Virus record (IMG/VR): IMGVR_UViG_2974625098_000001
Span: 59,622 to 123,621 of that record
Reading direction: 5' to 3' (one strand)
Length of the DNA: 64,000 nt
From: a virus
Lineage: Duplodnaviria > Heunggongvirae > Uroviricota > Caudoviricetes
Position 1 is the stretch's first letter. Every line of letters starts with the position of its first letter. Positions 18,129 through 38,694 of the stretch are shown here, one piece after another. Made by a program: the position numbers and the translations under genes. Under the pieces are notes generated by a model. That model was not told the origin of the DNA. It saw only the letters and a list, made by a program, of their open reading frames with translations, and made no database searches.

Positions 18129-18362
18129 ATGGCAGGACTGCCTAAGAAGTTGTACTACGTCCTCTTGAAGCCCGGAGGAAAGCCGCTGGGCTATCGTCAA
18201 AAAGGTGGTGGCACCTATACTGACAAGAAATATGCTGAGTCCCAGTACAAAAACCTCAAGGCGTACGGCTCGAACGTAGAGCTGCACGAGGGCGTGATAG
18301 ACTGGACGAAGATTGCATCCTCCGAGCAAGACGAGAACGAAGGGCAGCCAACACTGTGGTAA
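18129..18362 (+). CDS. hypothetical protein
   Basis: track ORF; RBS GGAGGTCAAGC. Confidence 0.5.
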   Translation: MAGLPKKLYYVLLKPGGKPLGYRQKGGGTYTDKKYAESQYKNLKAYGSNVELHEGVIDWTKIASSEQDENEGQPTLW

Positions 18363-18832
18363 CCTATGTCAAGGGCGATGCGACGAAGCCCCAGGGCGAT
18401 GGCAAGAAGATTATTGCTCACGTCTGCAACGATGAGGGCCTGTGGGGCTCGGGATTCGTCCTTGCGGTGAACAAGTTGTCTCCGTTGCCGAGGATGCTTT
18501 ATCTCCAGGAGCACAAGTTCTGGACCGAGGAGGCCGGGTTTACGTTTACTCCGTTGGGAGTCACCCAGCTCGTAACCGTTGCCGAAAACCTCATGGTCTG
18601 TAATATGGTGGCTCAGCACCGAACGATTCGGCACGTCGAGAAGCCGATTTGCTACAAGTCCCTTGAGGCCGCTCTTAATGAGCTGGCTGGACGGGCAAGG
18701 GATGAAGAGGCTACAGTTCATATGCCTCGCATCGGGGCGGGTTTGGCCCGAGGCAACTGGGAAGTTATTGAGTCGATTGTCAATCGTACTCTAACGTTGC
18801 AGGATGTTGACGTTACAGTCTACGACCTGTAA
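18356..18832 (+). CDS. macro domain protein (ADP-ribose binding or hydrolase)
   Basis: YVKGDATKP, IAHVCNDEGLWGSGFVLAV, HMPRIGAGLARGNW correspond to macro domain GDIT, NAAN and GGGV-type motifs. Confidence 0.6.
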   Translation: MVTYVKGDATKPQGDGKKIIAHVCNDEGLWGSGFVLAVNKLSPLPRMLYLQEHKFWTEEAGFTFTPLGVTQLVTVAENLMVCNMVAQHRTIRHVEKPICYKSLEAALNELAGRARDEEATVHMPRIGAGLARGNWEVIESIVNRTLTLQDVDVTVYDL

Positions 18833-18894
18833 ACTATAGGGGTTCCAGAAAATAACTGGAGCCCCTAAGCTCCAGAAGAAAAGAGGGAAGTAGA

Positions 18895-19089
18895 ATGGCA
18901 GAGTGGATTGCCGAGCAGTTGATGAAGTTTGCATTCGGAACTGCTGTTGCGGGCATCGCCTGGGTGCTCCTGGTTGGTGTCCTGGCCTGGACGGTTCCTT
19001 TCTGGGTTATCTGGCTCGTCTGTGAGCTGCTGGTATTTGGAATTATCTTCGGCCTTGAGCACAGCGATGGACACTGGGACTTCTTCTGA
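18895..19089 (+). CDS. small 2-TM membrane protein
   Basis: two hydrophobic stretches; RBS AGAGGGAAGTAGA. Confidence 0.5.
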   Translation: MAEWIAEQLMKFAFGTAVAGIAWVLLVGVLAWTVPFWVIWLVCELLVFGIIFGLEHSDGHWDFF

Positions 19090-19153
19090 GGTACCATGGG
19101 GCTAACGCCCCAAGCTGACACATTGGTTCCAACCAAAGGGAGAATAAAAACCA

Positions 19154-21076
19154 ATGCGACCGAACACGATTGTTGCTCAGCGCGAAGGTAACCTCGGCGG
19201 CAACGAGCACAAGATGATGTTCGATGAGAACAGCGTTGCGCATCTGATGTCTGTTCTTACGGACCTGTATTCCGACCCCGAGCTGGCTGTAATTCGAGAG
19301 TACAGCACAAACGCTCTCGACTCGCATATTGCGGCGGGTACTGTTCGACCGATTGAGGTCACTACGCCGAATGCGCTCTCTCCATTCTTCAAGGTCAAGG
19401 ATTACGGCCTTGGTATGGATGAGGAAGACATCAAGAATATCTACTCCAAGTACGGTGCTTCTACGAAGCGCGATTCCGACTCGGTTGTGGGTATGCTTGG
19501 CCTCGGCTGCAAGTCGGCACTGACGTACACTCAGCAGTTTACGCTTAACACCGTCAAGAATGGCGTTAAGTACATGGTGGCGGTTTCTCGCACCGAGGAC
19601 GGCTCTGGTGTTATGGAGGTTATCGACTCCTCTCCGACCGACGAGCTGAACAGTGTTGAGGTCGTTGTTCCCGTTAAGCGGGGTAACGAGTTCGAGCGCA
19701 AGTCTCGGGATTTCTTCCGGTTCTGGAAGCCTGGCACGGTCCTGCTTAATGGTGCACAGCCCCAGGGAATCGGTGGCAAGGAAATCGCTCCGGGTGTTTT
19801 TATGGTCCGTGACATTTCCTCTGACTACCTGGTGATGGGCAACGTGGCCTACCCGCTGGACATCGAGCACGCGCTGTCCGACAGTCAGTCGTACTACAAG
19901 CGCTGGGCAATTGTGGCCTACGTCGAAATTGGTTCGGTGAACTTCACGCCTTCGCGTGAGTCGCTGCATTACACCCGACGCACCGAGGCGACTATCCGTG
20001 AGTTCAAGAAGATTGTGGACGAGCGGATTACCAAGGTGGTCCAGGAGGACATTGACTCCAAGGATAGTGAGTGGGACGCTTTCCAGGCGTACTACGAGTG
20101 GAGTGAATTCTTCGGCGGTAATTACGGTGGCAGTCGCTACATGCCGCGCAACGTGGTCTACAAGGGCACCGAGCTGCCGACCGTCTTCCGGGCGGATGGT
20201 ATGCTTTACAACACGAGCGCTTCTCGGTACGCTGTAAGCGATGTCCACAAGATGGACGCTCGCAACGCAGCCAAGACGCCGGTTATCTACGATTACCCGA
20301 GCGAGAAGGTTGCACCTACTCACCGAGAGAAGATGCGAGCCTGGCGCAAGGATAATGCTTCCGACGCCTACCACATCTTTGTCTGTAAGGAGCTGCCGGA
20401 ATTCCCGGACTGGCTTCCCATTCAGACGGTAAAGTGGGAAGACGTTAAGTCCATCAAGATTGTTCGGGAGAAGACTGGCGCTACTCGGTCCAAGCCTCGT
20501 TTCGAGATTTTCTACGACGGCAAGGACCACTACCTGACCAAGGACGAAATCAAGAAGACTGAAATTGTTCTGGTGAAGCCGAAGAACTACATGAGCAATG
20601 CTTCGAAGAAGCAGCTTGAGGCACTTCGGCCGGGTATTGGTATCGTCACTCTGACCGAGAGTCGTTGGGACGCCTTTAAGAAGACGTTCCCGAATGCCAA
20701 GTCCCTTGAGGAAATTCTTCGAGAGCTGGTGGTGGAAGTCAAGGATGCACTGACGAAGGAGGACTTGCTTTTCCTGTCGGTGCGGTGGTACTCTCGTAAC
20801 GTTCTCATCCAGCTTGACCCCAAGCGGATTGACGACCCGACGCTTTCGAATATCGTGACGTTCGTCAAGAGCAGCACGGCATCCGATAATGTCAAGCGTT
20901 ACAACACCTGGCATTCGATTTACAACGACATCACGATTGGCACTATCCTGGACAGGAACGCCACCGTTGACACGGACGTGATGGATAATTACCCTCTGAT
21001 TCGGAACCTCCAGTCCGATTCTCTTGAGGATGCCTACTGTTACATCAATGCGAAGTATGCTACGATGAATAAGTAA
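19154..21076 (+). CDS. rIIA-like protein with N-terminal GHKL (HATPase_c) ATPase domain
   Basis: N box EYSTNALDS, G1 box DYGLGMD, G2 box GMLGLGCKS; 640 aa; a longer antisense ORF overlaps it but lacks motifs. Confidence 0.55.
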   Translation: MRPNTIVAQREGNLGGNEHKMMFDENSVAHLMSVLTDLYSDPELAVIREYSTNALDSHIAAGTVRPIEVTTPNALSPFFKVKDYGLGMDEEDIKNIYSKYGASTKRDSDSVVGMLGLGCKSALTYTQQFTLNTVKNGVKYMVAVSRTEDGSGVMEVIDSSPTDELNSVEVVVPVKRGNEFERKSRDFFRFWKPGTVLLNGAQPQGIGGKEIAPGVFMVRDISSDYLVMGNVAYPLDIEHALSDSQSYYKRWAIVAYVEIGSVNFTPSRESLHYTRRTEATIREFKKIVDERITKVVQEDIDSKDSEWDAFQAYYEWSEFFGGNYGGSRYMPRNVVYKGTELPTVFRADGMLYNTSASRYAVSDVHKMDARNAAKTPVIYDYPSEKVAPTHREKMRAWRKDNASDAYHIFVCKELPEFPDWLPIQTVKWEDVKSIKIVREKTGATRSKPRFEIFYDGKDHYLTKDEIKKTEIVLVKPKNYMSNASKKQLEALRPGIGIVTLTESRWDAFKKTFPNAKSLEEILRELVVEVKDALTKEDLLFLSVRWYSRNVLIQLDPKRIDDPTLSNIVTFVKSSTASDNVKRYNTWHSIYNDITIGTILDRNATVDTDVMDNYPLIRNLQSDSLEDAYCYINAKYATMNK

Positions 21077-21125
21077 GCGATTGGCCCTTCGGGGCCAAGC
21101 TTCCCAACAAGTTCCAATATTTGGA

Positions 21126-22214
21126 GTGGTTAAAATTAAGTACAATCTGGTTAAGTTCCAGGACTCCGACGAGGCGAACCTGACGGTTTTCGTCAACGGG
21201 GAAATGTACGTTGCCACCGACTCGCACCCGAATTTCAAGGCGATTCTCGTTAAGGTCGCTGAGGAGGACGAGAGTGTCGTGGACCTGTTCGATGTAAGCA
21301 AGACCGCTGAGAAGCGATTCGACCGGCTTTCCGAGCGGGTTACCGTTTCGAACGGCCGGATTTACTTCGACGGTGAAGAGGTGGATAACGCGCTGACCTC
21401 TCAGGTGCTCCGTTTTATCGACGGTGGCGTTGAGGACTTCAACCCTCTGGTTAAGTTCTTCGAGAAGGTCATGACCAACCCCAACGAGCACAGCAGGGAA
21501 CAGCTTTACCGCTGGCTGGCTCGTTACGACTTCACCATTACCGATGAGGGTGACTTCATCGCGTACAAGGGTGTTGCTACTGACGCTGAGGGTAACTACG
21601 TCAGTGTTAATCACGGTCGAGCGATTTCGAATGGCGTCGAGTACAATGGTGCTATTCCTAACCCGCTCGGTGCAGTTGTTGAGATGCCTCGTGGCGATGT
21701 TCAGCACGACCCTTCGGTTGGCTGTCACGTCGGTCTGCACGCCGGTACTTACGAGTACGCTAGGCAGTGGGCTAAGGGTGGTCTTCTCACCGTTGTGATT
21801 AATCCTCGCGACGTTGTTTCTGTTCCGACTGACTGTCAGGACCAGAAGTTGCGGGTTTGCCGTTACACGGTTCAGGAGGTCACCGAGGTCAAGTATTCCG
21901 CGCCGGTTATCAGCTTCGATGAAGAGGATGACGAGGACGAGGATGCTTGCTACAATTGTGGTTACGTCGAGTGTGAGTGCTGCGGCGAGTGCGGTTCTGC
22001 GTACTGCTACGACGAAGAGTGCATGGACTGTCCTGACTGTGGCGAGCGTGACTGTGAATGCTGCGAGGCTTGTGAGGCTTTCCCTTGCGAGTGCCCGGAG
22101 CCGCAGACTCCTGCTGCTGACCTTGACGCTTTCGTGAAGGGCATTAACACGGTGGAGGGCTTTAAGCGCGGTTACCTCGGTAACGACTGGCCTGACGCTC
22201 CTTGGAATAAGTAA
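21126..22214 (+). CDS. protein with extreme Cys-rich C-terminal tail; possible rIIB-like partner
   Basis: track ORF 21081-22214; true start likely GTG near 21126 after the hairpin-AAGCTT element; tail CYNCGYVECECCGECGSAYCYDEECMDCPDCGERDCECCEACEAFPCECPEP. Confidence 0.4.
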   Translation: MVKIKYNLVKFQDSDEANLTVFVNGEMYVATDSHPNFKAILVKVAEEDESVVDLFDVSKTAEKRFDRLSERVTVSNGRIYFDGEEVDNALTSQVLRFIDGGVEDFNPLVKFFEKVMTNPNEHSREQLYRWLARYDFTITDEGDFIAYKGVATDAEGNYVSVNHGRAISNGVEYNGAIPNPLGAVVEMPRGDVQHDPSVGCHVGLHAGTYEYARQWAKGGLLTVVINPRDVVSVPTDCQDQKLRVCRYTVQEVTEVKYSAPVISFDEEDDEDEDACYNCGYVECECCGECGSAYCYDEECMDCPDCGERDCECCEACEAFPCECPEPQTPAADLDAFVKGINTVEGFKRGYLGNDWPDAPWNK

Positions 22215-22275
22215 TTCCCATGGCCCCCTGGAAAACAGGGGGCCAAGCTTTTTATCCGCCCCGGAAAGGAAAACA

Positions 22276-23037: not shown

Positions 23038-23042
23038 GCGTT

Positions 23043-23072
23043 TTGCCTTAGAATTTAATCCCGTGCTATAAT
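23043..23072 (+). promoter_or_regulatory. promoter TTGCCT-N18-TATAAT
   Basis: consensus -10; good -35. Confidence 0.5.
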
Positions 23073-23082
23073 TTAATATACC

Positions 23083-23103
23083 GTTGACTACCTAGGAGTC
23101 AAC
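23083..23103 (+). promoter_or_regulatory. palindromic operator-like site GTTGACT-ACCTAGG-AGTCAAC just downstream of the -10
   Basis: 7-bp perfect inverted arms around a CCTAGG core, overlapping the predicted transcription start. Confidence 0.4.
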
Positions 23104-23125
23104 AATTCAAGGAGGTGCAAAACAC

Positions 23126-26119: not shown

Positions 26120-26193
26120 GCCCCAGTGGTCTAGCGGTCTAGGATACTTGACTCTCAATCAAGAGGTCGCCGGTTCGAATCCGGTCTGGGGTA
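26120..26193 (+). tRNA. tRNA-Glu(CTC)
   Basis: acceptor GCCCCAG/CTGGGGT; anticodon arm CTTGA-CTCTCAA-TCAAG; T arm GCCGG-TTCGAAT-CCGGT. Confidence 0.65.
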
Positions 26194-26306
26194 CAAACGG
26201 AAATAGTAGGTCGGCGGGTGGCCACCCAACAAAGAGATTGCCGAGCTGCTATTATCGTCAGGGTAAGTAGGGATAAAACGCGAGACACCCTCGGAGACCC
26301 GCCCAT

Positions 26307-26379
26307 GCCCCGGTGTACGATGGAATGCAGTTAGGGTTTTCACCCCTAATTTTCGCGGGTTCGATTCCCGTCCGGGGTA
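26307..26379 (+). tRNA. tRNA-Glu(TTC), D arm atypical
   Basis: acceptor GCCCCGG/CCGGGGT; anticodon arm TAGGG-TTTTCAC-CCCTA; T arm GCGGG-TTCGATT-CCCGT. Confidence 0.5.
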
Positions 26380-26383
26380 CGCA

Positions 26384-26611
26384 ATGGCAGCACGACAGGT
26401 AACACAGAAGTCAGCTCTAATTGAAGCCCGCTGGGTCATCAAGATTCTTCTTGGTATGTTCGGCGGGATTATTGTTGCGTTCTTGCTCATAGGTTGGATA
26501 TCAGAAAGCAATGACACAGAGAAGATGAAAGCCTGTGTAAGCAAAAGTGACAGGGAATGGGTCAAGAACGATTGCGTCTTCCCGCCCCAACCAATTCCAT
26601 CAAGCTCTTGA
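26384..26611 (+). CDS. small membrane protein
   Basis: track ORF; one TM; start uncertain. Confidence 0.4.
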   Translation: MAARQVTQKSALIEARWVIKILLGMFGGIIVAFLLIGWISESNDTEKMKACVSKSDREWVKNDCVFPPQPIPSSS

Positions 26612-26629
26612 ACAGTCGCTCCGGGTAAT

Positions 26630-26654
26630 GCCGCACCGGCTGTTTCTTTTTTAT
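26630..26654 (+). terminator. terminator
   Basis: GCCG-CAC-CGGC then TGTTTCTTTTTTAT. Confidence 0.5.
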
Positions 26655-26676
26655 CCCCTAGAATAAGGAAAAAGAG

Positions 26677-27240
26677 ATGTCTCTCGTTGGTACGCGAGTT
26701 CGCGTCAAGGATAACTACGCCGGTGGCCTGGATGGCGTTATCGGTAAGACCGCTAAGGTTGTCGCGTTCGACCCGAACCACGACCCGGCCACGGAGGGGC
26801 GGCTTTACGCTCTGGATATTCAGGGCAGCCGCACCAAGACCTACTACGACTCTTGGCGCAAGGAGGATGTCAGCTACACCTACGATTACACCGTACTCGT
26901 GACGGGCGAGGAAATCGAGCCGGTTGTCTTTGATGTCACGGACTCCAAGGGTCAGAAGATTGAGATTGGCGACACTGTTGCCTATGGCCCTCTCGGCGGT
27001 GGCGTCAACGTCGGCAAGGTGGTTGACCTCAAGGAGGCCAATGACCGCTATTACAAGGTCGCGGTAAAGGTTGAGCTGGACGAGACCACTTCGCACATTG
27101 ATGGTGGCGACAGGCGAATTGATGGCCTGCCTTCCAAGCGTTACCAGACCTACACCCACACTGACCGGATGCTGGTTATTCAGAAGGGCTCGTTTAACTA
27201 CGTGCAGCAGTTCGGCAAGATTACTCTTGGCTCGCTCTGA
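26677..27240 (+). CDS. hypothetical protein with two KOW/SH3-like repeats
   Basis: track ORF; repeated GxxVxVxxxxxGGxxGxxGKxxKVV segments. Confidence 0.55.
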   Translation: MSLVGTRVRVKDNYAGGLDGVIGKTAKVVAFDPNHDPATEGRLYALDIQGSRTKTYYDSWRKEDVSYTYDYTVLVTGEEIEPVVFDVTDSKGQKIEIGDTVAYGPLGGGVNVGKVVDLKEANDRYYKVAVKVELDETTSHIDGGDRRIDGLPSKRYQTYTHTDRMLVIQKGSFNYVQQFGKITLGSL

Positions 27241-27443
27241 TGGATTTCGTTGACTGCATCGGACGCCCGGTTGCCGTTGGTGACCGGGTTGGTGTAGCAT
27301 TCTCTTATTCCCGAGCTTCGGTCGGGTATATCAGAATCGGTCGCGTGAAGACTCTGGAGCCTGAGTTCCGGATGCGCTGGGAGGCTGACGACAAGGTCAG
27401 TCCTCCGATGGTCTACGACGCCAGGCGAATGGTCATACTCTAA
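27240..27443 (+). CDS. hypothetical protein
   Basis: track ORF; ATGA overlap. Confidence 0.5.
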   Translation: MDFVDCIGRPVAVGDRVGVAFSYSRASVGYIRIGRVKTLEPEFRMRWEADDKVSPPMVYDARRMVIL

Positions 27444-27529
27444 TGTGTTGCAACCGTCCTTGTATGGTTTCCACCTGGGAGAACGGCAAGTACGTTCTCA
27501 AATGCATTAACTGCAACAAGTGTAGTTGA
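27443..27529 (+). CDS. 28-aa Cys-rich peptide
   Basis: MCCNRPCMVSTWENGKYVLKCINCNKCS; TAATG overlap. Confidence 0.25.
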   Translation: MCCNRPCMVSTWENGKYVLKCINCNKCS

Positions 27530-27555
27530 CACGGCTGAATAATCCGTGCTACTAT
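27526..27555 (+). promoter_or_regulatory. promoter TTGACA-N18-TACTAT
   Basis: consensus -35; good -10; followed by 8-bp hairpin CATCAGGT-CAAC-ACCTGATG. Confidence 0.5.
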
Positions 27556-27585
27556 AGATACATCAGGTCAACACCTGATGCATCT

Positions 27586-27656
27586 GCGCTATTAGCTCAA
27601 CAGTAGAGCACTAGTCTTCCAAACTAGGGACGCCGGGGCGGCACCGGCATAGCGCT
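27586..27656 (+). tRNA. tRNA-Gly(TCC)-like with non-canonical T loop (possible pseudo-tRNA)
   Basis: perfect acceptor GCGCTAT/ATAGCGC; D arm GCTC-AACAGTA-GAGC; anticodon arm CTAGT-CTTCCAA-ACTAG; T arm GCCGG-GGCGGCA-CCGGC lacks the TTC motif. Confidence 0.35.
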
Positions 27657-27670
27657 CTCTAAACAAAACA

Positions 27671-27703
27671 CCCCGGAGGATTTTCCTCCGGGGTTTCTTA
27701 TTT
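27671..27703 (+). terminator. rho-independent terminator
   Basis: CCCCGGAGG-ATTTT-CCTCCGGGG then TTTCTTATTT. Confidence 0.65.
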
Positions 27704-27712
27704 AGGAGAGTA

Positions 27713-28084
27713 ATGAAGAGGGTATTCTTTCGGCTGGCGAACACTACCCACATGCTGGTCCTGACGATTATCGGTACAATCCTGGTTAGCTCGGTGGTGT
27801 TTTCGCTGACCGAGGGCGTTAGCCTCTTCGATGGTGTATACTGGTCTGTAGTGACCATGAGTACGACGGGTTATGGGGACCTGAGCCCAGAATCTATCGT
27901 CGGCAAGGCGTACACCATGCTTCTCATGCTCTGGTCCGTGTTCTTCCTGGTTCCCAGTGCGGTTGCTCAAATCATTATGAAGTTCATCCATAACCGAAAT
28001 GAGTTCACCCACGAGGAGCAGGAGAAGATTATGCAGCAGCAGAAGCGCATCATTGAGCTGCTAGAAGGAGGAAAGAGTGAATGA
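27713..28084 (+). CDS. minimal potassium channel (2TM plus pore; Kcv-like)
   Basis: K+ selectivity filter VVTMSTTGYGDLSP between two TM helices; 123 aa. Confidence 0.7.
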   Translation: MKRVFFRLANTTHMLVLTIIGTILVSSVVFSLTEGVSLFDGVYWSVVTMSTTGYGDLSPESIVGKAYTMLLMLWSVFFLVPSAVAQIIMKFIHNRNEFTHEEQEKIMQQQKRIIELLEGGKSE

Positions 28085-28274
28085 GATTGAGGCGTACTGC
28101 TTCGACGTTCAGATTTATGTGAACGAGTTCGGGAAGTACGAGTACGGCGTGTCTCAGGAATTTGAAATTGATGGTGAAGAACAGTGGGAGTTGCTTGAAT
28201 CTGGCTCGGCAGATACTTTGGCTGAGGCCGCGCAGATGGCTAGTAACAGCATTCGCACACTGTTCCCGGCGTAA
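28077..28274 (+). CDS. hypothetical acidic protein
   Basis: track ORF. Confidence 0.45.
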   Translation: MNEIEAYCFDVQIYVNEFGKYEYGVSQEFEIDGEEQWELLESGSADTLAEAAQMASNSIRTLFPA

Positions 28275-28310
28275 ATAATTCGTGAGATTTTAGAGCCCTT
28301 TCGTAAAGGG
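28272..28310 (+). promoter_or_regulatory. copy 1 of bipartite motif TTCGTGAGATTTT-N16-TTCGTAAAGGG, directly upstream of tRNA-Gln
   Basis: see finding on the CGTGAGA/CGTAAAGG motif family. Confidence 0.45.
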
Positions 28311-28313
28311 CGG

Positions 28314-28386
28314 TCCCCTGTGCTCTGTCGGTTGGGCAACCGGACTTTGAATCCGGCCTACGCAGGTTCGAGCCCTGCCAGGGGAG
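28314..28386 (+). tRNA. tRNA-Gln(TTG)
   Basis: acceptor TCCCCTG/CAGGGGA (U1:A72 as in bacterial tRNA-Gln); anticodon arm CCGGA-CTTTGAA-TCCGG; T arm GCAGG-TTCGAGC-CCTGC. Confidence 0.55.
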
Positions 28387-28387
28387 C

Positions 28388-31567: not shown

Positions 31568-32452
31568 ATGCTGTTCATTGTTCTCGCAATTGTGTTCCTC
31601 CTGATTATTCTCGGTGGTGTGGGATTCTCCCTCGCTACTAAGGATAAGTTGGGATTCGGAGTGGCGGGAGGTGCGCTGGTTATCTTCCTGATAATCACTG
31701 GCTTCATGTCGTTCACGAAGGTCGATGCCCGAGCGGTCGGTATTCAGACTGGCTTCGGCAAGTACCAGGACACTTTGGGTAACGGTCCGCATTTCCTGGC
31801 CCCGTGGTCGGAGACGGAGCAGTTTTCCACGCAGGTTCAGTACCTTGACCTTGACGACACCGATGGTGACGGCAATGACTCGGTAAGCGTTACCTTTAAG
31901 GGTGGCGGCGGTGGCCAGGTTTCTCTCACTCCTCGCTGGAGGATTGACGAGAACAAGGCTGAGAACCTGTGGAAGAAGTACCGCACCTTCGACAAGGTTC
32001 GGGACCAGTTGGTGAACTCGTCTTCTAAGGATTCGGTCCGCGTGGTTGTTTCCAAGTACACGCCTAACGAGGCGCGTGATGGTGAGAACCTGCGTCCGAT
32101 TGCTGAGCAGATTCAGGCTGACCTTGCTAACTCGCTTAAGGATGACGGTGTTATCATCGACTCCGTAAGCATTAAGAAGATTCAGCTTGACGCTCGTAGT
32201 CAGAACTCGCTCGACAAGATTGTTGAGGCTAACAACAACATCGAGCGTGCCAAGGCCGAGCGTGAGCGTGCAAAGATTGACGCTGAGACTGCCAAGATTC
32301 GTGAGCAGTCTGGTCAGCTCTCTGAGAAGGCCAACCAGCGTTACTGCCTTGAGATGATGAACAACTGGGACGTGAAGAAGAACGGTCCTCTCCAGGACGG
32401 CTTCGTCTGCCCCGGTACCACTTCTCAGGGTTACACGACCACCAACAAGTAA
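31568..32452 (+). CDS. SPFH/band-7 (stomatin-prohibitin-like) membrane protein
   Basis: N-terminal TM pair then GIQTGFGKY and a coiled-coil, typical of SPFH domain proteins. Confidence 0.6.
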   Translation: MLFIVLAIVFLLIILGGVGFSLATKDKLGFGVAGGALVIFLIITGFMSFTKVDARAVGIQTGFGKYQDTLGNGPHFLAPWSETEQFSTQVQYLDLDDTDGDGNDSVSVTFKGGGGGQVSLTPRWRIDENKAENLWKKYRTFDKVRDQLVNSSSKDSVRVVVSKYTPNEARDGENLRPIAEQIQADLANSLKDDGVIIDSVSIKKIQLDARSQNSLDKIVEANNNIERAKAERERAKIDAETAKIREQSGQLSEKANQRYCLEMMNNWDVKKNGPLQDGFVCPGTTSQGYTTTNK

Positions 32453-33612: not shown

Positions 33613-33697
33613 GGAGATATGTCCGAGAGGCCGAAGGGACTCGACTGCTAATCGAGTAAGTGTAAAAGCTTCGTGGGTTCGAATCCCACTATCTCCG
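33613..33697 (+). tRNA. tRNA-Ser(GCT), class II
   Basis: acceptor GGAGATA/TATCTCC; anticodon arm CTCGA-CTGCTAA-TCGAG; long variable arm; T arm GTGGG-TTCGAAT-CCCAC. Confidence 0.7.
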
Positions 33698-33700
33698 CTT

Positions 33701-33736
33701 AAGCCCGTGGCAATAAGGTCACGGGCTTATTTTTAT
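33701..33736 (+). terminator. rho-independent terminator
   Basis: AAGCCCGTG-loop-CACGGGCTT then ATTTTTAT. Confidence 0.65.
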
Positions 33737-33756
33737 GGATTTAAGGAGTGAGTCTA

Positions 33757-34812
33757 ATGGTTCACGTTTCTGAAATCTTCTCGACGGACGAGCTTGAGAA
33801 GGCAATTGAGAACGGCTATGTCCGAGTGAACCCGCACCCGGACGCACCGCTGGTAATCCTCGGGTACACGGAAAAGGCTCAGTTTGACCGGATGTGGAAC
33901 GACGTTACGCTGAACTGCCGTGGTCTGATTATCGACTACGACGGTTTTGTTGTAGCTCGGCCGTGGAAGAAGTTCTTCAATTTCGGAGAGCGCCCGCTTC
34001 TTTTCGACACCGACGCTCCGGTTGAGGTGACTGACAAGAAGGATGGTTCGCTGGGTATTCTTTATCGGCACCCGGTGACTGGCGACTGGGCGATTTCCAC
34101 TCGTGGCTCTTTCACCTCGGACCAGGCGATTCACGCGACGAAGTTGTTCAACGACAAGTACAGTCACATCGTGAAGCCGCTCAAGGACACCACGTTCCTC
34201 TTTGAGATTGTTTATCCGAAGAACCGAATCGTTCTGAACTACGGTGACATGGACGACCTGATTCTTCTGGGTGCTGTCGATAACGAGCGGGGTTACTACT
34301 GGGGTCCGACTCAGGCTGCGGGTATTCTCAACTGGCCTGGCCCGGTGACGGAGGTATTCAAGTACCGCACCCTGAACGACTGCTTCTCGGTCCACAGGGA
34401 AAATGCTGAGGGCCTGGTAATTCGTTCGGGTAGCAACATGGTCAAGTTGAAGCAGGTCGATTATGTCGAGCTGCACCGCATCGTGACCAACCTGAACGAG
34501 CGCTCTGTCTGGTCTCAGCTCAAGGAGGGTAAGTCTGCGCGGGATATTTGCGAGATGATTCCCGACGAGTGGCACGACTGGGTTGTGGATGTGGCCGAGG
34601 TGCTGTACTCTAAGTACCACGAGCTGGAGAACGAGGTCACCGGCGCTTATGCAGACGTGATTCACTCTCTGCCGGGCGGATTTTCTCGTAAGGACTTTGC
34701 CCTTGAGGCGAAGAAGACTCCTTACATGTCTTACCTGTTTGCTCTGCTTGACTGCAAGTCCATCAGTGATATGCTGTGGGACGCGGTAAAGCCTGCGGTT
34801 AACAACAAGTAA
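33757..34812 (+). CDS. ATP-dependent RNA ligase (T4 Rnl-like nucleotidyltransferase)
   Basis: motif I TDKKDGSLG (KxDG), motif IV AEGLVIR, motif V NMVKLK; 352 aa; AAGGAG 8 nt before ATG 33757. Confidence 0.65.
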   Translation: MVHVSEIFSTDELEKAIENGYVRVNPHPDAPLVILGYTEKAQFDRMWNDVTLNCRGLIIDYDGFVVARPWKKFFNFGERPLLFDTDAPVEVTDKKDGSLGILYRHPVTGDWAISTRGSFTSDQAIHATKLFNDKYSHIVKPLKDTTFLFEIVYPKNRIVLNYGDMDDLILLGAVDNERGYYWGPTQAAGILNWPGPVTEVFKYRTLNDCFSVHRENAEGLVIRSGSNMVKLKQVDYVELHRIVTNLNERSVWSQLKEGKSARDICEMIPDEWHDWVVDVAEVLYSKYHELENEVTGAYADVIHSLPGGFSRKDFALEAKKTPYMSYLFALLDCKSISDMLWDAVKPAVNNK

Positions 34813-34860
34813 GACGGCGGGGCTTCGGCCCCGCAAGCTTCCTCTGACTTAGGAGATATT

Positions 34861-35046
34861 ATGGTGCCCGAGGGCAACTGGCTGACTGTTGGTAAGCTCA
34901 AGGAGCTGCTGAACGGCGTGCCAGATGATATGCTGGTGGTCGGTTGGTCGGACTACTACCCTGGCCTGGCAGACAGTGCAGGCGTCGAAGATTGGGGCGA
35001 CAACGGCAAGTTCTTCGTGGTTAACGGAAACGGCGGGGAGTTTTAA
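34861..35046 (+). CDS. hypothetical protein
   Basis: track ORF; RBS TTAGGAGATATT. Confidence 0.5.
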   Translation: MVPEGNWLTVGKLKELLNGVPDDMLVVGWSDYYPGLADSAGVEDWGDNGKFFVVNGNGGEF

Positions 35047-35291
35047 TGGACCTAGAACAGATAATCGACTGGTATAATGACCTCCGAGAGAAGTGCTTGG
35101 AGGTCGCTAAGAAGAAGCCCGAGCTTTTTGGTGACTCTGTCTGGCTCCAGTACGCTATACAAGAGTCCGACATCACGCTATACTTCATCGCAGGGGTTGG
35201 CGTTGAATGTTCGGGCATGGCATACACAAGCCAGACCATGGACAATGAGCCGTTCGACTTCATCATTCCGTTCTCTGAGCTGGAGGATTAA
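35046..35291 (+). CDS. hypothetical protein
   Basis: track ORF. Confidence 0.5.
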   Translation: MDLEQIIDWYNDLREKCLEVAKKKPELFGDSVWLQYAIQESDITLYFIAGVGVECSGMAYTSQTMDNEPFDFIIPFSELED

Positions 35292-35543
35292 ATGGACTTC
35301 GATGGTTACGTCATCAAGGTCAAGTTGGTTCCGGGATATGCACACTTTCCACAGGAGCTTTACGAGGCTTACGTCGATAAGCCTGATGGCACTCCACTGA
35401 TGGGCAAGGGAATGTTCCCCTCACCCAAGCGATTCACCACCTTTGGTTGGTCGGTGGACCAGGCGAAGCGCAAGTTCCGCCGAGAGATTCGCCATTATCT
35501 CGAAACAGTGGACAGGGACCCGGTTCGCTACTTCTCGCTCTAG
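35292..35543 (+). CDS. hypothetical protein
   Basis: track ORF. Confidence 0.5.
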   Translation: MDFDGYVIKVKLVPGYAHFPQELYEAYVDKPDGTPLMGKGMFPSPKRFTTFGWSVDQAKRKFRREIRHYLETVDRDPVRYFSL

Positions 35544-35598
35544 ACAAGCACAACGGCCAGTGATAAACTGGCCAAGCTTCCCTACTAAGGAGAATAAA

Positions 35599-35856
35599 AT
35601 GGCAAAGGCCATGAGCAAGGGCGAGCGCGCTGTTTCCGGTCTCGTTGTCGGAGTTATCGGGTTCTTCCTTGAGGGCTGGATGCTCATGCTGTTCCTCGGC
35701 GGGGTTCATCACGAAGTTCTCGGGTCGGTTCGTCCCATCGGTTACTGGACTGCTTGTATGCTGTCGGTTCCGCTGGACATTCTCTTCATGTCGTACTTCG
35801 CGATGACTGCCAACAAGGTGGATGAGCTGCACCAGCGCGTTATTGACGGTCGCTGA
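35599..35856 (+). CDS. small membrane protein
   Basis: RBS CTAAGGAGAATAAA then ATG 35599; in frame of track ORF 35443. Confidence 0.5.
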   Translation: MAKAMSKGERAVSGLVVGVIGFFLEGWMLMLFLGGVHHEVLGSVRPIGYWTACMLSVPLDILFMSYFAMTANKVDELHQRVIDGR

Positions 35857-35906
35857 CCGACTGCCGGGTGAAAATCCCGGCAAGCTTCCCAACGAGAGGG
35901 TGTAAA

Positions 35907-36197
35907 ATGCAGCGTCGGATTATTCGCGTTGTTTGTTGGGTTATCGGTATGGTAGGCTTTGGTCTCATGCGGGGGAACCTGCTTGACCAGAACTACCTGG
36001 CCTTTATCGGTGGCGTGGTTATTGCTGGTGTGGTCTACATCAGCTATGCTCCCGAGAAGAAGGTTGTTGAGGCTAAGCCTCTAAACCGAGAGGCCCGTCG
36101 CCACCCGAACGGCAAGGCTCCTGCTCAGAAGTTCAAGACTGTAAATGCTCGCGGTCGTCAGAAGCAGGGGAACAATAAGGCCGTTAAGGGTTGGTGA
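35907..36197 (+). CDS. membrane protein with basic tail
   Basis: RBS GAGAGGGTGTAAA then ATG 35907. Confidence 0.5.
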   Translation: MQRRIIRVVCWVIGMVGFGLMRGNLLDQNYLAFIGGVVIAGVVYISYAPEKKVVEAKPLNREARRHPNGKAPAQKFKTVNARGRQKQGNNKAVKGW

Positions 36198-36249
36198 CAC
36201 TCGGCCGGGTTATCCCGGCCAAGCTTCCATTGTCTAAGAAGGGAAAATA

Positions 36250-37122
36250 ATGCTGGAGCTAGTTCTTACTCGCGGCATTCCCGCTTCTGGTAAGTCAACC
36301 TGGGCTAAGGCTTGGGTCCTTTCCGGAAAGAACCGAGTCCGAATTAACCGTGACGATATTCGAATGCAGCTTTTCAACAAGGAGTTCGGCGTTGACGAAG
36401 ACGCTGTGACTGCCGTTGAGGATGCCATGGTTGCGGCGGCTCTTAAGGCTGGCAATTCCGTTGTGGTCGATGACTGCAACATTCAGAAGCGTTACATCAA
36501 CCGGCTGGCTGCAATTGGTCATCGGTACGGTGCAAACGTTCGGGTTGCCCAGTTCGATATTCGTCTGAGCGAGGCTCTGGAGCGGAACGCCAAGCGGGAC
36601 CGGGTTGTTCCTGAGAACGTCATCCGGGACATGTTCAAGCGTACTGGAGCGAACCTCCACGGCCCCGTAGAAAATCCGCTGGTCATCGAAAAATATGTTG
36701 CCCCAGAAGATGCCCCCGAGGCTATTCTGGTGGACATTGATGGAACCCTGGCCAAGATGGTCAACCGTGGTCCGTTCGAGTGGCACCGGGTTGAGGAAGA
36801 CGAGCCGGTTGACACGATTATCGATATCGTGGATACTGAGTGCTCAAGCGGTACTCAGATTATCGTGATGTCGGGTCGGGACGGTTCCTGCCGAGCAGAG
36901 ACCGAGCGGTGGCTTGACAAGCACGAGATTTTCCACGATGCTCTACACATGCGGGCTCCGGGGGATATGCGTAAGGACAGCATCGTGAAGTTGGAGCTGT
37001 TCAATAAGCACATCCGCCACGACTATCGAGTCAAGTACGTCCTTGACGACAGGGACCAGGTGGTTGACATGTGGCGCTCGCTTGGGCTAACCTGTCTACA
37101 GGTCGCACCGGGAGATTTTTAA
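36250..37122 (+). CDS. polynucleotide 5'-kinase / 3'-phosphatase (Pnkp, T4 Pnk-like)
   Basis: N-terminal P-loop TRGIPASGKST; C-terminal HAD phosphatase motif I ILVDIDGTLA and later DD motif. Confidence 0.7.
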   Translation: MLELVLTRGIPASGKSTWAKAWVLSGKNRVRINRDDIRMQLFNKEFGVDEDAVTAVEDAMVAAALKAGNSVVVDDCNIQKRYINRLAAIGHRYGANVRVAQFDIRLSEALERNAKRDRVVPENVIRDMFKRTGANLHGPVENPLVIEKYVAPEDAPEAILVDIDGTLAKMVNRGPFEWHRVEEDEPVDTIIDIVDTECSSGTQIIVMSGRDGSCRAETERWLDKHEIFHDALHMRAPGDMRKDSIVKLELFNKHIRHDYRVKYVLDDRDQVVDMWRSLGLTCLQVAPGDF

Positions 37123-37329
37123 ATGGCTCTTATCGGAGCGTTGTTTATCACGCTGATTGTTGGTGTGGTAGTTTTCATGTGCCTCGGCCTTCCCTATATT
37201 GCTATAGGGTTCGGCGGGCCGACCAGAAGCAATGTGTCATGCCTGATTATCGGCTTGATACTCTCTGCCTTCATGGTGTATGGTTGGTGGCACTACGTCG
37301 GAAGTAATATCCACTTTAGCTTCGGCTAA
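37123..37329 (+). CDS. small 2-TM membrane protein
   Basis: track ORF. Confidence 0.5.
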   Translation: MALIGALFITLIVGVVVFMCLGLPYIAIGFGGPTRSNVSCLIIGLILSAFMVYGWWHYVGSNIHFSFG

Positions 37330-37379
37330 ACCCGGCGGGTCTTCGGACCCGCCAAGCTTAATCTACTACGGAGGTAAAT

Positions 37380-37736
37380 ATGTCCTGGAGCGACAACCCG
37401 TACTACGACCCGTCGAAGTTCGGTCTGGAGCTGGTGGATTCCATTGAGTGGGACGGTGAGTCTTACGAGTTCAACATGACTGCCGTTTGGAAGGCGAAGC
37501 GCGGAGAGTATTACATCGGGGATGACTCGGGCTGCTCGTGCCCTGCGCCTTTCGAGAACGTCGAGAAGTTGGAGGAGCTTGACGGGCCTCACAACAAGCG
37601 TGGTCTTGAGTCGGCACTGCGGTACCGTCTTAAGCAGAACGCGCGGGATGAGAGCGAGACTTCGGGCTACCGATACGGTCGTTCTTATGCCGAGCTGGAG
37701 AAGGAAGTTCGCGAGCTGTTGGCGAAGTTGACCTAA
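37380..37736 (+). CDS. hypothetical protein
   Basis: track ORF; RBS ACGGAGGTAAAT. Confidence 0.55.
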   Translation: MSWSDNPYYDPSKFGLELVDSIEWDGESYEFNMTAVWKAKRGEYYIGDDSGCSCPAPFENVEKLEELDGPHNKRGLESALRYRLKQNARDESETSGYRYGRSYAELEKEVRELLAKLT

Positions 37737-37782
37737 TCCAGTGGGGCTTCGGCCCCAAGCTTCCCAATCTAAGGAGAGGGTA

Positions 37783-37944
37783 TGTTCAAGAAAGGCGATA
37801 AGGTTGCCTTGAAGGAGAACCCGCTTATCACTGGAACTATCCTCTACGTTAAGATGGGGATGGCTTACCATGAATATCGAGTTCTGTGGATGAATGGTCA
37901 AGAGCTTGACCACCGCGCACAGAGCATTGAACACGCGGAGTGAA
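37783..37944 (+). CDS. small protein (53 aa)
   Basis: RBS CTAAGGAGAGGGT then ATG; MFKKGDKVALKENPLITGTILYV. Confidence 0.4.
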
Positions 37945-38122
37945 ATTGAGTTCTTACGACCTGGCCCTGGGTAAGGGTGTTGTTGCAATTCAGGACACCG
38001 CTCCGGATGCAATCCGAGAGCTGGCAGACATAATCGAAACCCGTGACGGTGTTCTTCTTGCCGTGGGTATTCAGTACAACCAAGACGAGGGCGATTACAC
38101 CGCATACGCTCTCTTCGAGTAG
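37940..38122 (+). CDS. hypothetical protein
   Basis: track ORF. Confidence 0.4.
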   Translation: MKLSSYDLALGKGVVAIQDTAPDAIRELADIIETRDGVLLAVGIQYNQDEGDYTAYALFE

Positions 38123-38181
38123 TTCCGGATGGCCGGGGGAGAAATCCCCCGGCCTTTTTGGCGTTTCAAGGAGTAAATAAA

Positions 38182-38694
38182 TTGGCTAATGTTATTGGCA
38201 AGTTCGACGGAGAGAACTACTTCCTCAGTAATTTCTCTCCGTCTGAGATTATGTTCGACTACGAGGACGAGAAGTTGGTCTTCAAGAACGGCGAGGCGGC
38301 TTTTCAGGCGGCCAAGGTTAGGTCGATGGCCTCCAAGGACCCGGCAGAAAAAAGCGCCTACGTCAAAAGGCTGGAGGCTGCTTCTAGCCCCAACGATGCC
38401 AAGTACGCGGGTCGCTCCGTCAAGATTGACCTTGAGCACTGGGAAACGATTAAGGTCAAGTGCATGAGGGAGGTTGTCTTTCAGAAGTTCCAGCAGAACC
38501 CCGAGCTTCGGGTACAGCTCATGCAGACTGGCCATGCCCTGCTCGTAGAAGGAAATACCTGGGGCGATAAATTCTGGGGCCGATGCGAGGGCAAGGGCTT
38601 TAATATCCTCGGCGGGATTTTGATGGAGGTGCGTGGTTACTACCTCTGGACTGCCGAGTACAACCGTCGAGCGTTTCAAAGGGACATGGGCTAG
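38182..38694 (+). CDS. NADAR (YbiA-like) domain protein
   Basis: FLSNFSP, EAAFQAAK, GNTWGD..FWG motifs of the YbiA/NADAR fold; TTG start 8 nt after AAGGAG, in frame of track ORF 38158. Confidence 0.5.
   Translation: MANVIGKFDGENYFLSNFSPSEIMFDYEDEKLVFKNGEAAFQAAKVRSMASKDPAEKSAYVKRLEAASSPNDAKYAGRSVKIDLEHWETIKVKCMREVVFQKFQQNPELRVQLMQTGHALLVEGNTWGDKFWGRCEGKGFNILGGILMEVRGYYLWTAEYNRRAFQRDMG

What the first reader, a model, noticed from the sequence alone, without database searches (positions are those of the whole stretch)
18356..38694. Macro domain and NADAR domain proteins: candidate ADP-ribosylation reversal (anti-toxin / anti-defence) pair
ORF 18356-18832 carries macro domain motifs. ORF 38182-38694 carries the YbiA/NADAR FxSNF ... 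EAxFQAxK ... NxWG motifs. Both domain families remove ADP-ribose from protein or nucleic acid targets (macrodomain DarG, NADAR against DarT-type guanine ADP-ribosylation). A phage carrying both suggests counter-defence against ADP-ribosyltransferase-based immunity.
Basis: partly seen in the sequence, partly recalled or inferred. Interest (0 to 1): 0.6.

Follow-up and report, generated by a model that had tools for sequence, protein, structure and literature searches.

The report
Phage macrodomain and NADAR ADP-ribose removers
Streptomyces phage BillNye carries two separate, unlinked enzymes (a macrodomain and a NADAR protein) that most likely strip ADP-ribose off DNA bases; both resemble phage proteins recently shown to defeat the bacterial DarTG defence, so this is a real but expected find.

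Summary
The window is Streptomyces phage BillNye (NC_042105.1, record 59622-123621). Both ORFs are real.

**Macrodomain, gp128 (18356-18832).** It falls below Pfam's Macro cut-off, but the assignment is secure. It is 44% identical to S. coelicolor SCO6735 (PDB E 3e-34), and its AlphaFold model matches BT1257, SCO6735, ALC1, TARG1 and DarG. It keeps SCO6735's His, Val, Asn, Gln and Gly-x-Gly residues. It is homologous to T-even phage Tk.4, the T4 anti-DarTG2 factor AdfM.

It scores 90.6 bits on Pfam NADAR and keeps the Glu/Lys/Glu/Asp/Trp active-site set. It is 40% identical to the NADAR of phage Bas32, which is almost certainly the tested anti-DarTG1 factor AdfN-Bas32.

**Not a linked pair.** The genes lie 19 kb apart. 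The NADAR occurs in 125 Streptomyces-phage records and the macrodomain in 38.

**Other observations.** Thirteen of the 38 macro-bearing records have a sirtuin gene abutting the macro gene; BillNye has none. No ADP-ribosyltransferase was found in BillNye.

**Verdict.** These are new members of a known kind, of modest interest.

The parts
18356..18832 (+). gp128: a stand-alone 158-aa macrodomain of the ALC1/TARG1-like class, SCO6735/BT1257 subclass. Predicted ADP-ribosyl hydrolase.
   Evidence: PDB phmmer gives BT1257 8.7e-35 and SCO6735 3.2e-34. It is 44% identical to SCO6735. The AlphaFold model has pLDDT 93.9, and the Foldseek top hits are 2fg1, 5e3b, ALC1, TARG1, Poa1p and DarG. H22, N25, Q87, G127 and G129 are invariant in homologues. 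hhalign to T2 Tk.4 gives 98.5% probability.
38182..38694 (+). gp084: a stand-alone 170-aa NADAR protein of the Glu (YbiA) type (GenBank annotates the start at 38158, 178 aa). Predicted guanine ADP-ribosyl hydrolase.
   Evidence: Pfam PF08719 scores 90.6 bits against GA 35.1. PHROG 1017 gives 1.2e-43. The AlphaFold model has pLDDT 94.1. Foldseek gives YbiA 3e-8 and Phytophthora NADAR 5e-8. E46, K53, R86, W95, E131, D137 and W140 (178-aa numbering) match the Phytophthora ADP-ribose-contact and catalytic residues. It is 40% identical to Bas32 bas32_0066.
38131..38159 (+). GC-rich hairpin (10 pairs) followed by a T-run. It lies directly upstream of the NADAR gene and overlaps the GenBank start codon.
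   Evidence: Terminator-like site and sequence. GGAG at 38170-38173 lies 8 nt before TTG 38182. Whether the hairpin actually terminates transcription is not shown.
18129..18362 (+). gp129: a 77-aa ORF of unknown function whose stop overlaps the macro start codon. In 13 of the macro-bearing phage records a sirtuin gene sits between this gene's homologue and the macro gene.
   Evidence: for BillNye. Patelgo gene order 165-166(Sir2)-167(macro). No Pfam family above threshold.

Best explanation
BillNye encodes two independent, single-domain ADP-ribosyl hydrolases. Each most likely acts as an 'orphan antitoxin' that repairs phage nucleic acid after attack by host ADP-ribosyltransferases.

gp128 is a SCO6735-type macrodomain. 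It is predicted to bind the ADP-ribose attached to thymine N3 in single-stranded DNA (and possibly to uracil in RNA) and to release it. The proposed mechanism is the Gln-assisted, water-mediated one described for SCO6735, which would reverse DarT2-type modification.

gp084 is a Glu-type NADAR. It is predicted to cleave ADP-ribose from guanine N2, which would reverse modification of the DarT1 type or the pierisin/ScARP type.

Together they would let the phage's own replication machinery copy DNA that would otherwise be blocked.

What is shown: fold, family placement, conservation of functional residues, homology to experimentally tested proteins, and distribution among phages.

What is inferred: the substrates, the counter-defence role in Streptomyces, and the identity of the host enzyme that is countered.
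For: Macrodomain:
- It is 44% identical to SCO6735. SCO6735 removes thymidine-linked ADP-ribose and rescues cells from DarT (PMC9411070).
- The SCO6735 residues His24, Val25, Asn27, Gln85, Gly126 and Gly128 correspond to H22, V23, N25, Q87, G127 and G129 here. These are conserved in 120 homologues.
- It is homologous to T2 Tk.4 (BLASTP 31%, E 7e-15; hhalign 98.5%). Tk.4 also has Gln at that position. T4 tk.4 is the anti-DarTG2 gene adfM (bioRxiv 10.1101/2025.11.20.689424). A chimallivirus macrodomain AdfM has also been demonstrated (PMC13309987).

NADAR:
- All Phytophthora NADAR contact and catalytic residues are conserved (residues listed in PMC11543638).
- It is 40% identical (E 1e-28) to the only NADAR ORF found in Bas32. 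AdfN-Bas32 neutralises DarT1 and restores phage growth (PMC11825919).
- All NADARs tested so far, including YbiA, remove guanine-linked ADP-ribose in vitro (PMC11125620, PMC11833690).

Context:
- Some Streptomyces carry DarTG, and S. coelicolor carries the guanine ADP-ribosyltransferase ScARP (PMC9411070).
- The macro gene lies immediately upstream of rIIA/rIIB, in the non-structural part of the genome.
- No phage ADP-ribosyltransferase, Tpt1 or sirtuin was found in BillNye.
Against: - No experiment exists for these proteins.
- Two SCO6735 lysines that contact DNA (K34, K89) are Ser32 and Ile91 here, although Arg89 and Arg92 flank the second site.
- SCO6735 also acts on protein-linked ADP-ribose, so the substrate need not be DNA.
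- In 13 of the 38 macro-bearing phage records a CobB-like sirtuin abuts the macro gene. That points to O-acyl-ADP-ribose or sirtuin-linked chemistry.
- gp084 just passes the NCBIfam model named for riboflavin-intermediate N-glycosidase (74.8 against 73.7 bits).
- E. coli YbiA and T4 NADAR alone did not rescue cells from DarT1 (PMC11125620).
- Whether the isolation host has any DarT was not tested.
Confidence: 0.6

Rival explanations
1. The macrodomain handles sirtuin products. It would deacylate O-acyl-ADP-ribose (as TARG1/OARD1 does) or reverse sirtuin-linked or protein-linked ADP-ribosylation, not DNA modification. In BillNye it would act on products of host sirtuins.
For: Thirteen of the 38 macro-bearing Streptomyces-phage records carry a 226-aa Sir2 gene whose end abuts or overlaps the macro start. 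That gene scores PF02146 at 2.4e-34. It resembles deacylases of the CobB/Sir2Af/SIRT5 type (4twi 1.9e-32). TARG1 is a match for gp128. SCO6735 hydrolyses protein-linked ADP-ribose (PMC9411070).
Against: BillNye has no Sir2. About two thirds of macro-bearing relatives also lack it, and Mandalore has Sir2 but no macro hit, so the macro gene persists independently. The TARG1 Lys84/Asp125 dyad is absent (Gln87, Ala131). The nearest characterised relatives act on thymine-linked ADP-ribose.
Confidence: 0.17
2. The NADAR is a metabolic enzyme of the YbiA type. It would be an N-glycosidase that destroys reactive riboflavin-pathway intermediates or other damaged nucleotides, unrelated to defence.
For: Glu131 sits at the position that defines the YbiA subfamily (criterion quoted in PMC11543638). 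TIGR02464 scores 74.8 bits, just above its 73.7 cut-off. The nearest solved structures are YbiA and the YbiA-type Phytophthora NADAR.
Against: gp084 is closer to the Bas32 NADAR (40% identity, 90.9 bits) than to YbiA (49 bits over part of its length). The Bas32 protein scores almost the same on TIGR02464 (66.3 bits), so that model does not separate the two functions. BillNye carries no annotated riboflavin genes. YbiA-type enzymes also remove guanine-linked ADP-ribose (PMC11125620).
Confidence: 0.1
3. Both enzymes belong to the phage's RNA-repair toolkit. They would remove ADP-ribose from RNA (guanosine or uridine bases) so that tRNA or mRNA remains usable.
For: The window holds about 30 tRNA genes, a tmRNA, an Rnl1-type ligase, a kinase-phosphatase (PNK) 1 kb upstream of the NADAR, and a second ligase. 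[quoted passage not shown] SCO6735 reverses uracil ADP-ribosylation in RNA (PMC13036486).
Against: The PNK-NADAR proximity is not conserved: in Patelgo they are about 18 kb apart. The Rnl1/PNK pathway leaves no 2'-phosphate, so it needs no ADP-ribose chemistry, and no Tpt1 was found. No RNA-targeting ADP-ribosyltransferase is known to act against these phages.
Confidence: 0.08
4. The two hydrolases regulate or reverse ADP-ribosylation carried out by a transferase that the phage itself encodes, as might be imagined for T4 Alt/ModA/ModB.
For: T-even phages that carry Tk.4 and gp30.3 also carry Alt-like transferases.
Against: No ADP-ribosyltransferase is annotated anywhere in BillNye. None was found by Pfam in 27 of its proteins, including the large unannotated ones. 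Many small ORFs remain unscanned.
Confidence: 0.04

Closest known systems
SCO6735 of Streptomyces coelicolor (PDB 5E3B) and BT1257 (2FG1): bacterial ALC1-like macrodomain subclass
   Same: 44% identity over the full length. Same fold. Same His-Val-x-Asn, Gln-His and Gly-x-Gly residues, with Gln in place of the catalytic Lys of TARG1 and DarG. Also has an extended loop between the second helix and the third strand.
   Different: It is phage-encoded. The DNA-contact lysines K34 and K89 are Ser32 and Ile91. The loop is 4-6 residues longer. SCO6735's DNA-damage (RecA-NDp) promoter context is absent.
AdfM: T4 Tk.4 (anti-DarTG2, bioRxiv 10.1101/2025.11.20.689424) and chimallivirus AdfM (PMC13309987)
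   Same: A stand-alone phage macrodomain of about 155 aa. Homologous to T2 Tk.4 (31% identity; hhalign 98.5%). Tk.4 also carries Gln at the Lys position and Ser at the K34 position.
   Different: Only distantly related in sequence. PhiKZ AdfM is a Lys-type DarG2-like protein (N23/K78 per PMC13309987). The host is an actinobacterium, and no anti-DarTG2 test has been done.
AdfN-Bas32 (NADAR of the T5-like phage IrisVonRoten; PMC11825919)
   Same: 40% identity, E 1e-28, with the same EGNTWGD-x-WG and E-x-AFQA-x-K motifs. Stand-alone phage NADAR. Similar score on TIGR02464.
   Different: gp084 is 20 aa longer at the C-terminus (a long terminal helix). That bas32_0066 is the published AdfN-Bas32 is inferred from its being the only NADAR hit in that genome. 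The accession could not be checked because the supplement is not held.
AdfN-T4 (gp30.3) and DarG1 (DarT1-associated NADAR, BC4488 subfamily)
   Same: Same superfamily. The SNF motif and the Glu and Lys equivalent to E43 and K50 are shared.
   Different: T2 gp30.3 has His, and DarG1 has Asp, where gp084 has Glu131 (PMC11543638). gp084 has no PF08010 hit. The Geobacter DarT1-linked NADAR is only a weak structural match (E 0.12). No toxin gene lies nearby.
E. coli YbiA (PDB 2B3W) / TIGR02464 riboflavin-intermediate N-glycosidase
   Same: Glu-type active site. Best structural match. Score just above the model cut-off.
   Different: Lower sequence similarity than to phage NADARs. No riboflavin or SOS-operon context.

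Membership tests
Macrodomain superfamily | Three-layer alpha/beta/alpha macro fold with an ADP-ribose binding cleft | tested here: met
   AlphaFold pLDDT 93.9. Foldseek gives 163 PDB macrodomain-type hits at E<=1e-3, the top ones at TM 0.85-0.88.
Macrodomain superfamily | Pfam PF01661 score at or above the gathering cut-off | tested here: not met
   15.9 bits against 22. Most close homologues also lack a precomputed PF01661 hit. This reflects a limitation of the model for this subclass and is not evidence against the fold.
SCO6735/BT1257 subclass of ALC1-like macrodomains | Close sequence similarity, and Gln in place of the catalytic Lys, together with His24, Val25, Asn27, Gly126 and Gly128 | tested here: met
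   E 3e-34 and 44% identity. H22, V23, N25, Q87, G127 and G129 are conserved across 120 homologues.
SCO6735/BT1257 subclass of ALC1-like macrodomains | DNA-positioning lysines Lys34 and Lys89 | tested here: not met
   Ser32 and Ile91 in gp128. Most phage homologues have Ala or Ser at the first site. Arg89 and Arg92 lie next to the second site.
SCO6735/BT1257 subclass of ALC1-like macrodomains | Hydrolysis of thymidine-linked ADP-ribose on ssDNA | not testable with these tools
   Needs a biochemical assay.
DarG (DarTG2 antitoxin) | Catalytic Lys80, a C-terminal DarT-binding domain, and an adjacent darT gene | tested here: not met
   Gln87 at the Lys position. The protein is a 158-aa single domain. 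The neighbours are gp129, gp127 and rIIA. NCBIfam DarG scores 17.2 bits against 250. PADLOC DarG gives E 0.001.
AdfM (phage anti-DarT2 macrodomain) | Phage-encoded stand-alone macrodomain homologous to T4 Tk.4 | tested here: met
   tblastn hits to tk.4 of T-even phages. BLASTP 31% identity, E 7e-15. hhalign 98.5%.
AdfM (phage anti-DarT2 macrodomain) | Protects the phage from DarTG2 | not testable with these tools
   Needs plaque assays.
NADAR superfamily (PF08719) | Profile score above the cut-off, the fold, and the ADP-ribose-contact residues (E43, K50, R79, W89, R93, D130, W133 of Phytophthora NADAR) | tested here: met
   90.6 bits against 35.1. Foldseek 2b3w and 8bau at about 1e-8. The equivalents are E46, K53, R86, W95, K99, D137 and W140.
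YbiA (Glu-type) NADAR subfamily | Glutamate at the position of Phytophthora E125 (Asp in the BC4488 subfamily, His in T4-type) | tested here: met
   Glu131, invariant in 120 homologues. T2 gp30.3 has His there. TIGR02464 scores 74.8 against 73.7.
AdfN (phage anti-DarT1 NADAR) | Homology to an experimentally validated AdfN | tested here: met
   40% identity and E 1e-28 to the single NADAR of Bas32. It is not of the T4 gp30.3 type (no PF08010 hit).
AdfN (phage anti-DarT1 NADAR) | Removes guanine ADP-ribose and protects the phage from DarTG1 | not testable with these tools
   Needs biochemical and plaque assays.
Sirtuin-macrodomain gene cassette | Sir2 gene immediately adjacent to the macro gene | tested here: not met
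   Present in Patelgo and 12 other macro-bearing records. Absent from BillNye by tblastn and by phmmer of all window ORFs.

The most novel reading that the evidence does not exclude
The NADAR was found in all 125 matching large Streptomyces-phage records, and the macrodomain in one subfamily. This may reflect pressure from Streptomyces-specific nucleic-acid ADP-ribosyltransferases and not from classical DarTG. One candidate is the pierisin-like guanine transferases ScARP and Scabin, which are currently viewed only as secreted toxins. That reading would give those enzymes an unrecognised antiphage role. Alternatively, the sirtuin-macrodomain cassette in related phages may mark a phage NAD+/acyl-ADP-ribose pathway of unknown purpose, of which BillNye keeps only the hydrolase.
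Probability: 0.12. Interest if true: 0.6.

Novelty: new member of a known kind. Interest (0 to 1): 0.3.

Why it matters
The result extends the recently established 'orphan antitoxin' counter-defence from E. coli and Pseudomonas phages to large actinobacteriophages. That counter-defence consists of AdfN NADARs against DarTG1 and AdfM macrodomains against DarTG2.

It gives specific names to two genes now annotated 'hypothetical protein' and 'glycosylase'. It also gives clear mutational targets: Q87, N25 and G129 in gp128, and E46, K53 and E131 in gp084.

The Gln-type macrodomain and the Glu-type NADAR seen here show that the phage versions come from enzyme subclasses other than the toxin-linked DarG and DarG1. 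This is relevant to how broadly such enzymes can be recognised in phage genomes.

If the counter-defence reading is wrong, the sirtuin linkage in relatives would be the lead to follow.

Tried and rejected
1. Pfam Macro as the deciding test. It falls below threshold, so I replaced it with PDB sequence search, PHROGs, structure prediction and fold search.
2. gp128 as a DarG family member. Rejected: Gln in place of Lys, no second domain, no toxin neighbour, and 17 bits against a cut-off of 250.
3. A tRNA-splicing ADP-ribose-1''-phosphate route (Poa1p-like). Poa1p is only a partial or weak match. The ligase is Rnl1-type with a T4-type kinase-phosphatase, and no Tpt1 was found.
4. A phage-encoded ADP-ribosyltransferase partner. 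None is annotated, and none was found in the 27 proteins scanned.
5. A Sir2 partner in BillNye. Absent.
6. Further macro or NADAR copies in the window. None.
7. Recent capture from the host, judged by base composition. Gene GC is 54-55% against 53% for the window, so there is no signal.
8. The neighbourhood of a 'bacterial' Streptomyces homologue, as a clue to a toxin partner. It lies among small ORFs and phage-type DUFs (prophage-like), with no transferase.
9. Whether Forrest and Jada lack the NADAR. They are not in the top 60 of 125 hits. One 6-kb stretch of Forrest has no NADAR, but gene order differs there, so this stays unresolved.
10. Confirming the AdfN-Bas32 accession. The paper's supplement is not held.
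11. One repeated PDB search added only the ALC1 alignment.

Full report
**Identity of the window.** The window is 100% identical to Streptomyces phage BillNye (NC_042105.1; Stanwilliamsviridae, Loccivirinae, Wilnyevirus; 127 kb; host S. viridochromogenes). Window position 1 corresponds to record position 59622. The two ORFs are gp128, annotated 'hypothetical protein', and gp084, annotated 'glycosylase'.

**Observation: the macrodomain.** ORF 18356-18832 (+) encodes 158 aa. Its GTG start overlaps the stop of the upstream 77-aa gene (GTGGTAA). The other evidence is unambiguous:
- PHROG 335, E 1.7e-28.
- PDB sequence search: BT1257 8.7e-35, S. coelicolor SCO6735 3.2e-34, the ALC1 macrodomain 2e-13, and TARG1 4e-6.
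- 44% identity to SCO6735 over the whole length.
- An AlphaFold model built from a 57-sequence alignment has pLDDT 93.9.
- Foldseek returns BT1257, SCO6735, ALC1, TARG1, Poa1p and DarG at E 1e-17 to 1e-9.

**Observation: the NADAR.**
- Pfam NADAR scores 90.6 bits against 35.1.
- PHROG 1017, E 1.2e-43.
- PDB sequence hits are YbiA (4e-12) and the Phytophthora NADAR 8BAU (8e-7).
- The AlphaFold model (pLDDT 94.1) matches YbiA and 8BAU at about 1e-8. The DarT1-associated Geobacter NADAR matches only at E 0.12.

GGAG lies 8 nt upstream of 38182. A 10-pair GC hairpin plus a T-run at 38131-38159 overlaps the GenBank start. The closest homologues are 170 aa. The first ten residues of the long form are modelled poorly.

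A local HMM scan of all 862 six-frame ORFs finds exactly one macro ORF and one NADAR ORF in the window.

**Anatomy of the macrodomain.** The SCO6735 paper (PMC9411070) identifies these residues as important: His24, Val25, Asn27, Gln85 (in place of the catalytic Lys of TARG1 and DarG), Gly126, Gly128, and the DNA-positioning Lys34 and Lys89.
- In gp128 the equivalents H22, V23, N25, Q87, G127 and G129 are present. They are invariant or nearly so across 120 homologues.
- Lys34 is Ser32. This position is Ala in most phage homologues.
- Lys89 is Ile91, flanked by Arg89 and Arg92.
- The TARG1 Lys84/Asp125 dyad is absent (Gln87, Ala131). My recalled TARG1 sequence has Lys and Asp at exactly positions 84 and 125, which supports the alignment.

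gp128 is therefore a member of the SCO6735/BT1257 subclass and not of DarG proper. It has no second domain, no toxin neighbour, and scores 17 bits against DarG's cut-off of 250.

**Anatomy of the NADAR.** Schuller et al. (PMC11543638) list E43, K50, R79, W89, R93, E125, D130 and W133 of the Phytophthora enzyme as ADP-ribose-contact or catalytic residues. They state that the E125 position separates the subfamilies: Glu in YbiA-type, Asp in DarT1-associated BC4488-type, and His in T4-type phage NADARs.
- gp084 has E46, K53, R86, W95, K99, E131, D137 and W140 (178-aa numbering).
- Glu131 is invariant in 120 homologues, whereas T2 gp30.3 has His there.
- gp084 is therefore Glu-type. It just passes NCBIfam TIGR02464 (74.8 against 73.7 bits).

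**Link to tested phage proteins.**
- Macrodomain. tblastn finds gp128 homologues in 415 phage records. These include tk.4 of T-even phages. Against T2 Tk.4, BLASTP gives 31% identity with E 7e-15, and hhalign gives 98.5% probability. T4 tk.4 was identified as the anti-DarTG2 gene adfM (bioRxiv 10.1101/2025.11.20.689424). A chimallivirus AdfM has also been demonstrated (PMC13309987).
- NADAR. gp084 has homologues in 481 phage records. One of them is the T5-like phage IrisVonRoten (MZ501075.1), which is Bas32 (bioRxiv 10.1101/2021.03.08.434280). Its single NADAR ORF, bas32_0066, is 40% identical to gp084 (E 1e-28) and has the same Glu-type motif.
- AdfN-Bas32 neutralises DarT1 on its own and restores growth of DarTG1-sensitive phages (PMC11825919). 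The identification of bas32_0066 as AdfN-Bas32 rests on its being the only NADAR hit in that genome; the supplement is not held.
- The Bas32 protein scores 66.3 bits on TIGR02464. The 'riboflavin N-glycosidase' label therefore does not separate housekeeping enzymes from counter-defence enzymes.

**Is it a pair?** The genes are 19.3 kb apart.
- The macro gene occurs in 38 Streptomyces-phage records, all genomes of 121-131 kb. Those whose taxonomy I read (BillNye, Patelgo, Forrest) are Loccivirinae.
- The NADAR occurs in 125 Streptomyces-phage records.
- At least 36 of the 38 macro-bearing records also carry the NADAR. Forrest and Jada were not among the 60 rows listed, and this could not be resolved.
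- The co-occurrence is what is expected if one gene is family-wide and the other subfamily-wide. It is not evidence of a coupled module.
- T4 shows the same arrangement, with an unlinked macrodomain and NADAR, each aimed at a different DarT type.

**Surroundings.**
- The macro gene lies directly upstream of a small membrane-protein ORF and rIIA/rIIB. It is downstream of a large tRNA/tmRNA block.
- The NADAR lies 1 kb downstream of a T4-type polynucleotide kinase-phosphatase and 3.4 kb downstream of an Rnl1-type RNA ligase. This proximity is not conserved in Patelgo.
- The immediate neighbours have no informative families: DUF7574, DUF7275, or nothing.
- No ADP-ribosyltransferase, Tpt1 or sirtuin is annotated in BillNye or was found in the 27 proteins scanned.
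- Gene GC (54-55%) equals the window's (53%), so there is no sign of recent capture.

**An unexpected lead.** In Patelgo and 12 other macro-bearing records, a 226-aa sirtuin sits immediately upstream of the macro gene, its end abutting or overlapping the macro start. It scores PF02146 at 2.4e-34 and resembles the Sir2Af/CobB/SIRT5 deacylases (4twi 1.9e-32). BillNye and about two thirds of macro-bearing relatives lack it. A fourteenth record, Mandalore, has the sirtuin without a macro hit. This keeps an O-acyl-ADP-ribose or sirtuin-linked role for the macrodomain possible, but shows that the macro gene persists without the sirtuin.

**Mechanism proposed.**
- Shown: folds, subclass placement, conserved functional residues, homology to tested proteins, and distribution.
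- Inferred: gp128 removes ADP-ribose from thymine in ssDNA, reversing DarT2-type modification. gp084 removes ADP-ribose from guanine N2, reversing DarT1-type or ScARP-type modification. Together they would free the phage's own DnaE polymerase, primase and helicase machinery to replicate.
- The host side rests on the literature only. Some Streptomyces carry DarTG, and S. coelicolor carries the guanine transferase ScARP (PMC9411070).
- My confidence is about 0.97 for the family assignments, about 0.7 for nucleic-acid de-ADP-ribosylation activity, and about 0.6 for the counter-defence role.

**Comparison and novelty.** Both proteins are new members of known kinds. The concept of phage orphan NADAR and macrodomain antitoxins, and of one phage carrying both, was published in 2025-2026. 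What is modestly new:
- the actinophage setting;
- the use of the Gln-type (SCO6735-like) macrodomain and the Glu-type NADAR, as opposed to the toxin-linked subtypes;
- the sirtuin-macro cassette in relatives;
- a corrected start for gp084.

Interest is modest (0.3).

Noticed in passing
window 38131-38184: A 10-pair GC-rich hairpin with a T-run (GGCCGGGGGA-GAAA-TCCCCCGGCC-TTTTT) overlaps the GenBank TTG start (38158) of the NADAR gene. GGAG at 38170-38173 precedes an in-frame TTG at 38182. The annotated start is probably 8 codons too early.
   Followed up: partly
window 38716-38745: A near-consensus sigma-70-like promoter match (TTGACA, 18 nt, TACAAT; 11 of 12) lies just after the NADAR stop and ahead of gp083. 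The 2.4-kb region has 7 promoter-like sites against 1.6 expected.
   Followed up: no
L003 (Patelgo OQ995431.1) 3321-4477: A CobB/Sir2Af-like sirtuin gene ends where the macro gene starts. Sir2 hits occur in 14 Streptomyces-phage records, 13 of which also carry the macro gene (Mandalore does not). BillNye has none. A possible sirtuin-macrodomain cassette in phages.
   Followed up: partly
window 6832-16948, 26120-28387, 33613-33698: About 30 tRNA genes and a tmRNA (15726-16021) are annotated in the window. They are interleaved with small ORFs, which is an unusually rich translation-related load.
   Followed up: no
window 33757-34812, 36250-37122, 44938-45585: An RNA-repair set: an Rnl1-type RNA ligase, a T4-type polynucleotide kinase with a HAD phosphatase domain, and a second ligase (PF09414). 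This suggests defence against host anticodon nucleases.
   Followed up: partly
window 31568-32452: A 294-aa 'hypothetical protein' is an SPFH/Band 7 family protein (PF01145, 6e-25), which is unusual in a phage.
   Followed up: no
window 39316-40062 and 37380-37736: The NADAR's neighbours belong to recently defined families of unknown function: DUF7275 (1.6e-66) and DUF7574 (8e-24).
   Followed up: no
L009 (Streptomyces sp. NPDC007100, JBEYFQ010000006.1) 5001-5486: A 'bacterial' macro homologue with 50% identity sits among many small ORFs together with DUF5047 and DUF6221 genes. This looks like a prophage, so some chromosomal SCO6735-like genes may themselves be phage-borne.
   Followed up: no
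window 10382-10669 (- strand): An Lsr2-like nucleoid-associated gene is one of the very few minus-strand genes in the window. Two further Lsr2-like genes lie at window positions 54543-54821 and 54951-55502.
   Followed up: no
L005 (phage T2) 6707-7165 and 11528-15304: In T2 the NADAR gene 30.3 also lies within a few kb of DNA ligase, polynucleotide kinase (pseT) and RNA ligase (rnlA), as in BillNye. This is probably coincidence, because the linkage is not kept in Patelgo.
   Followed up: partly
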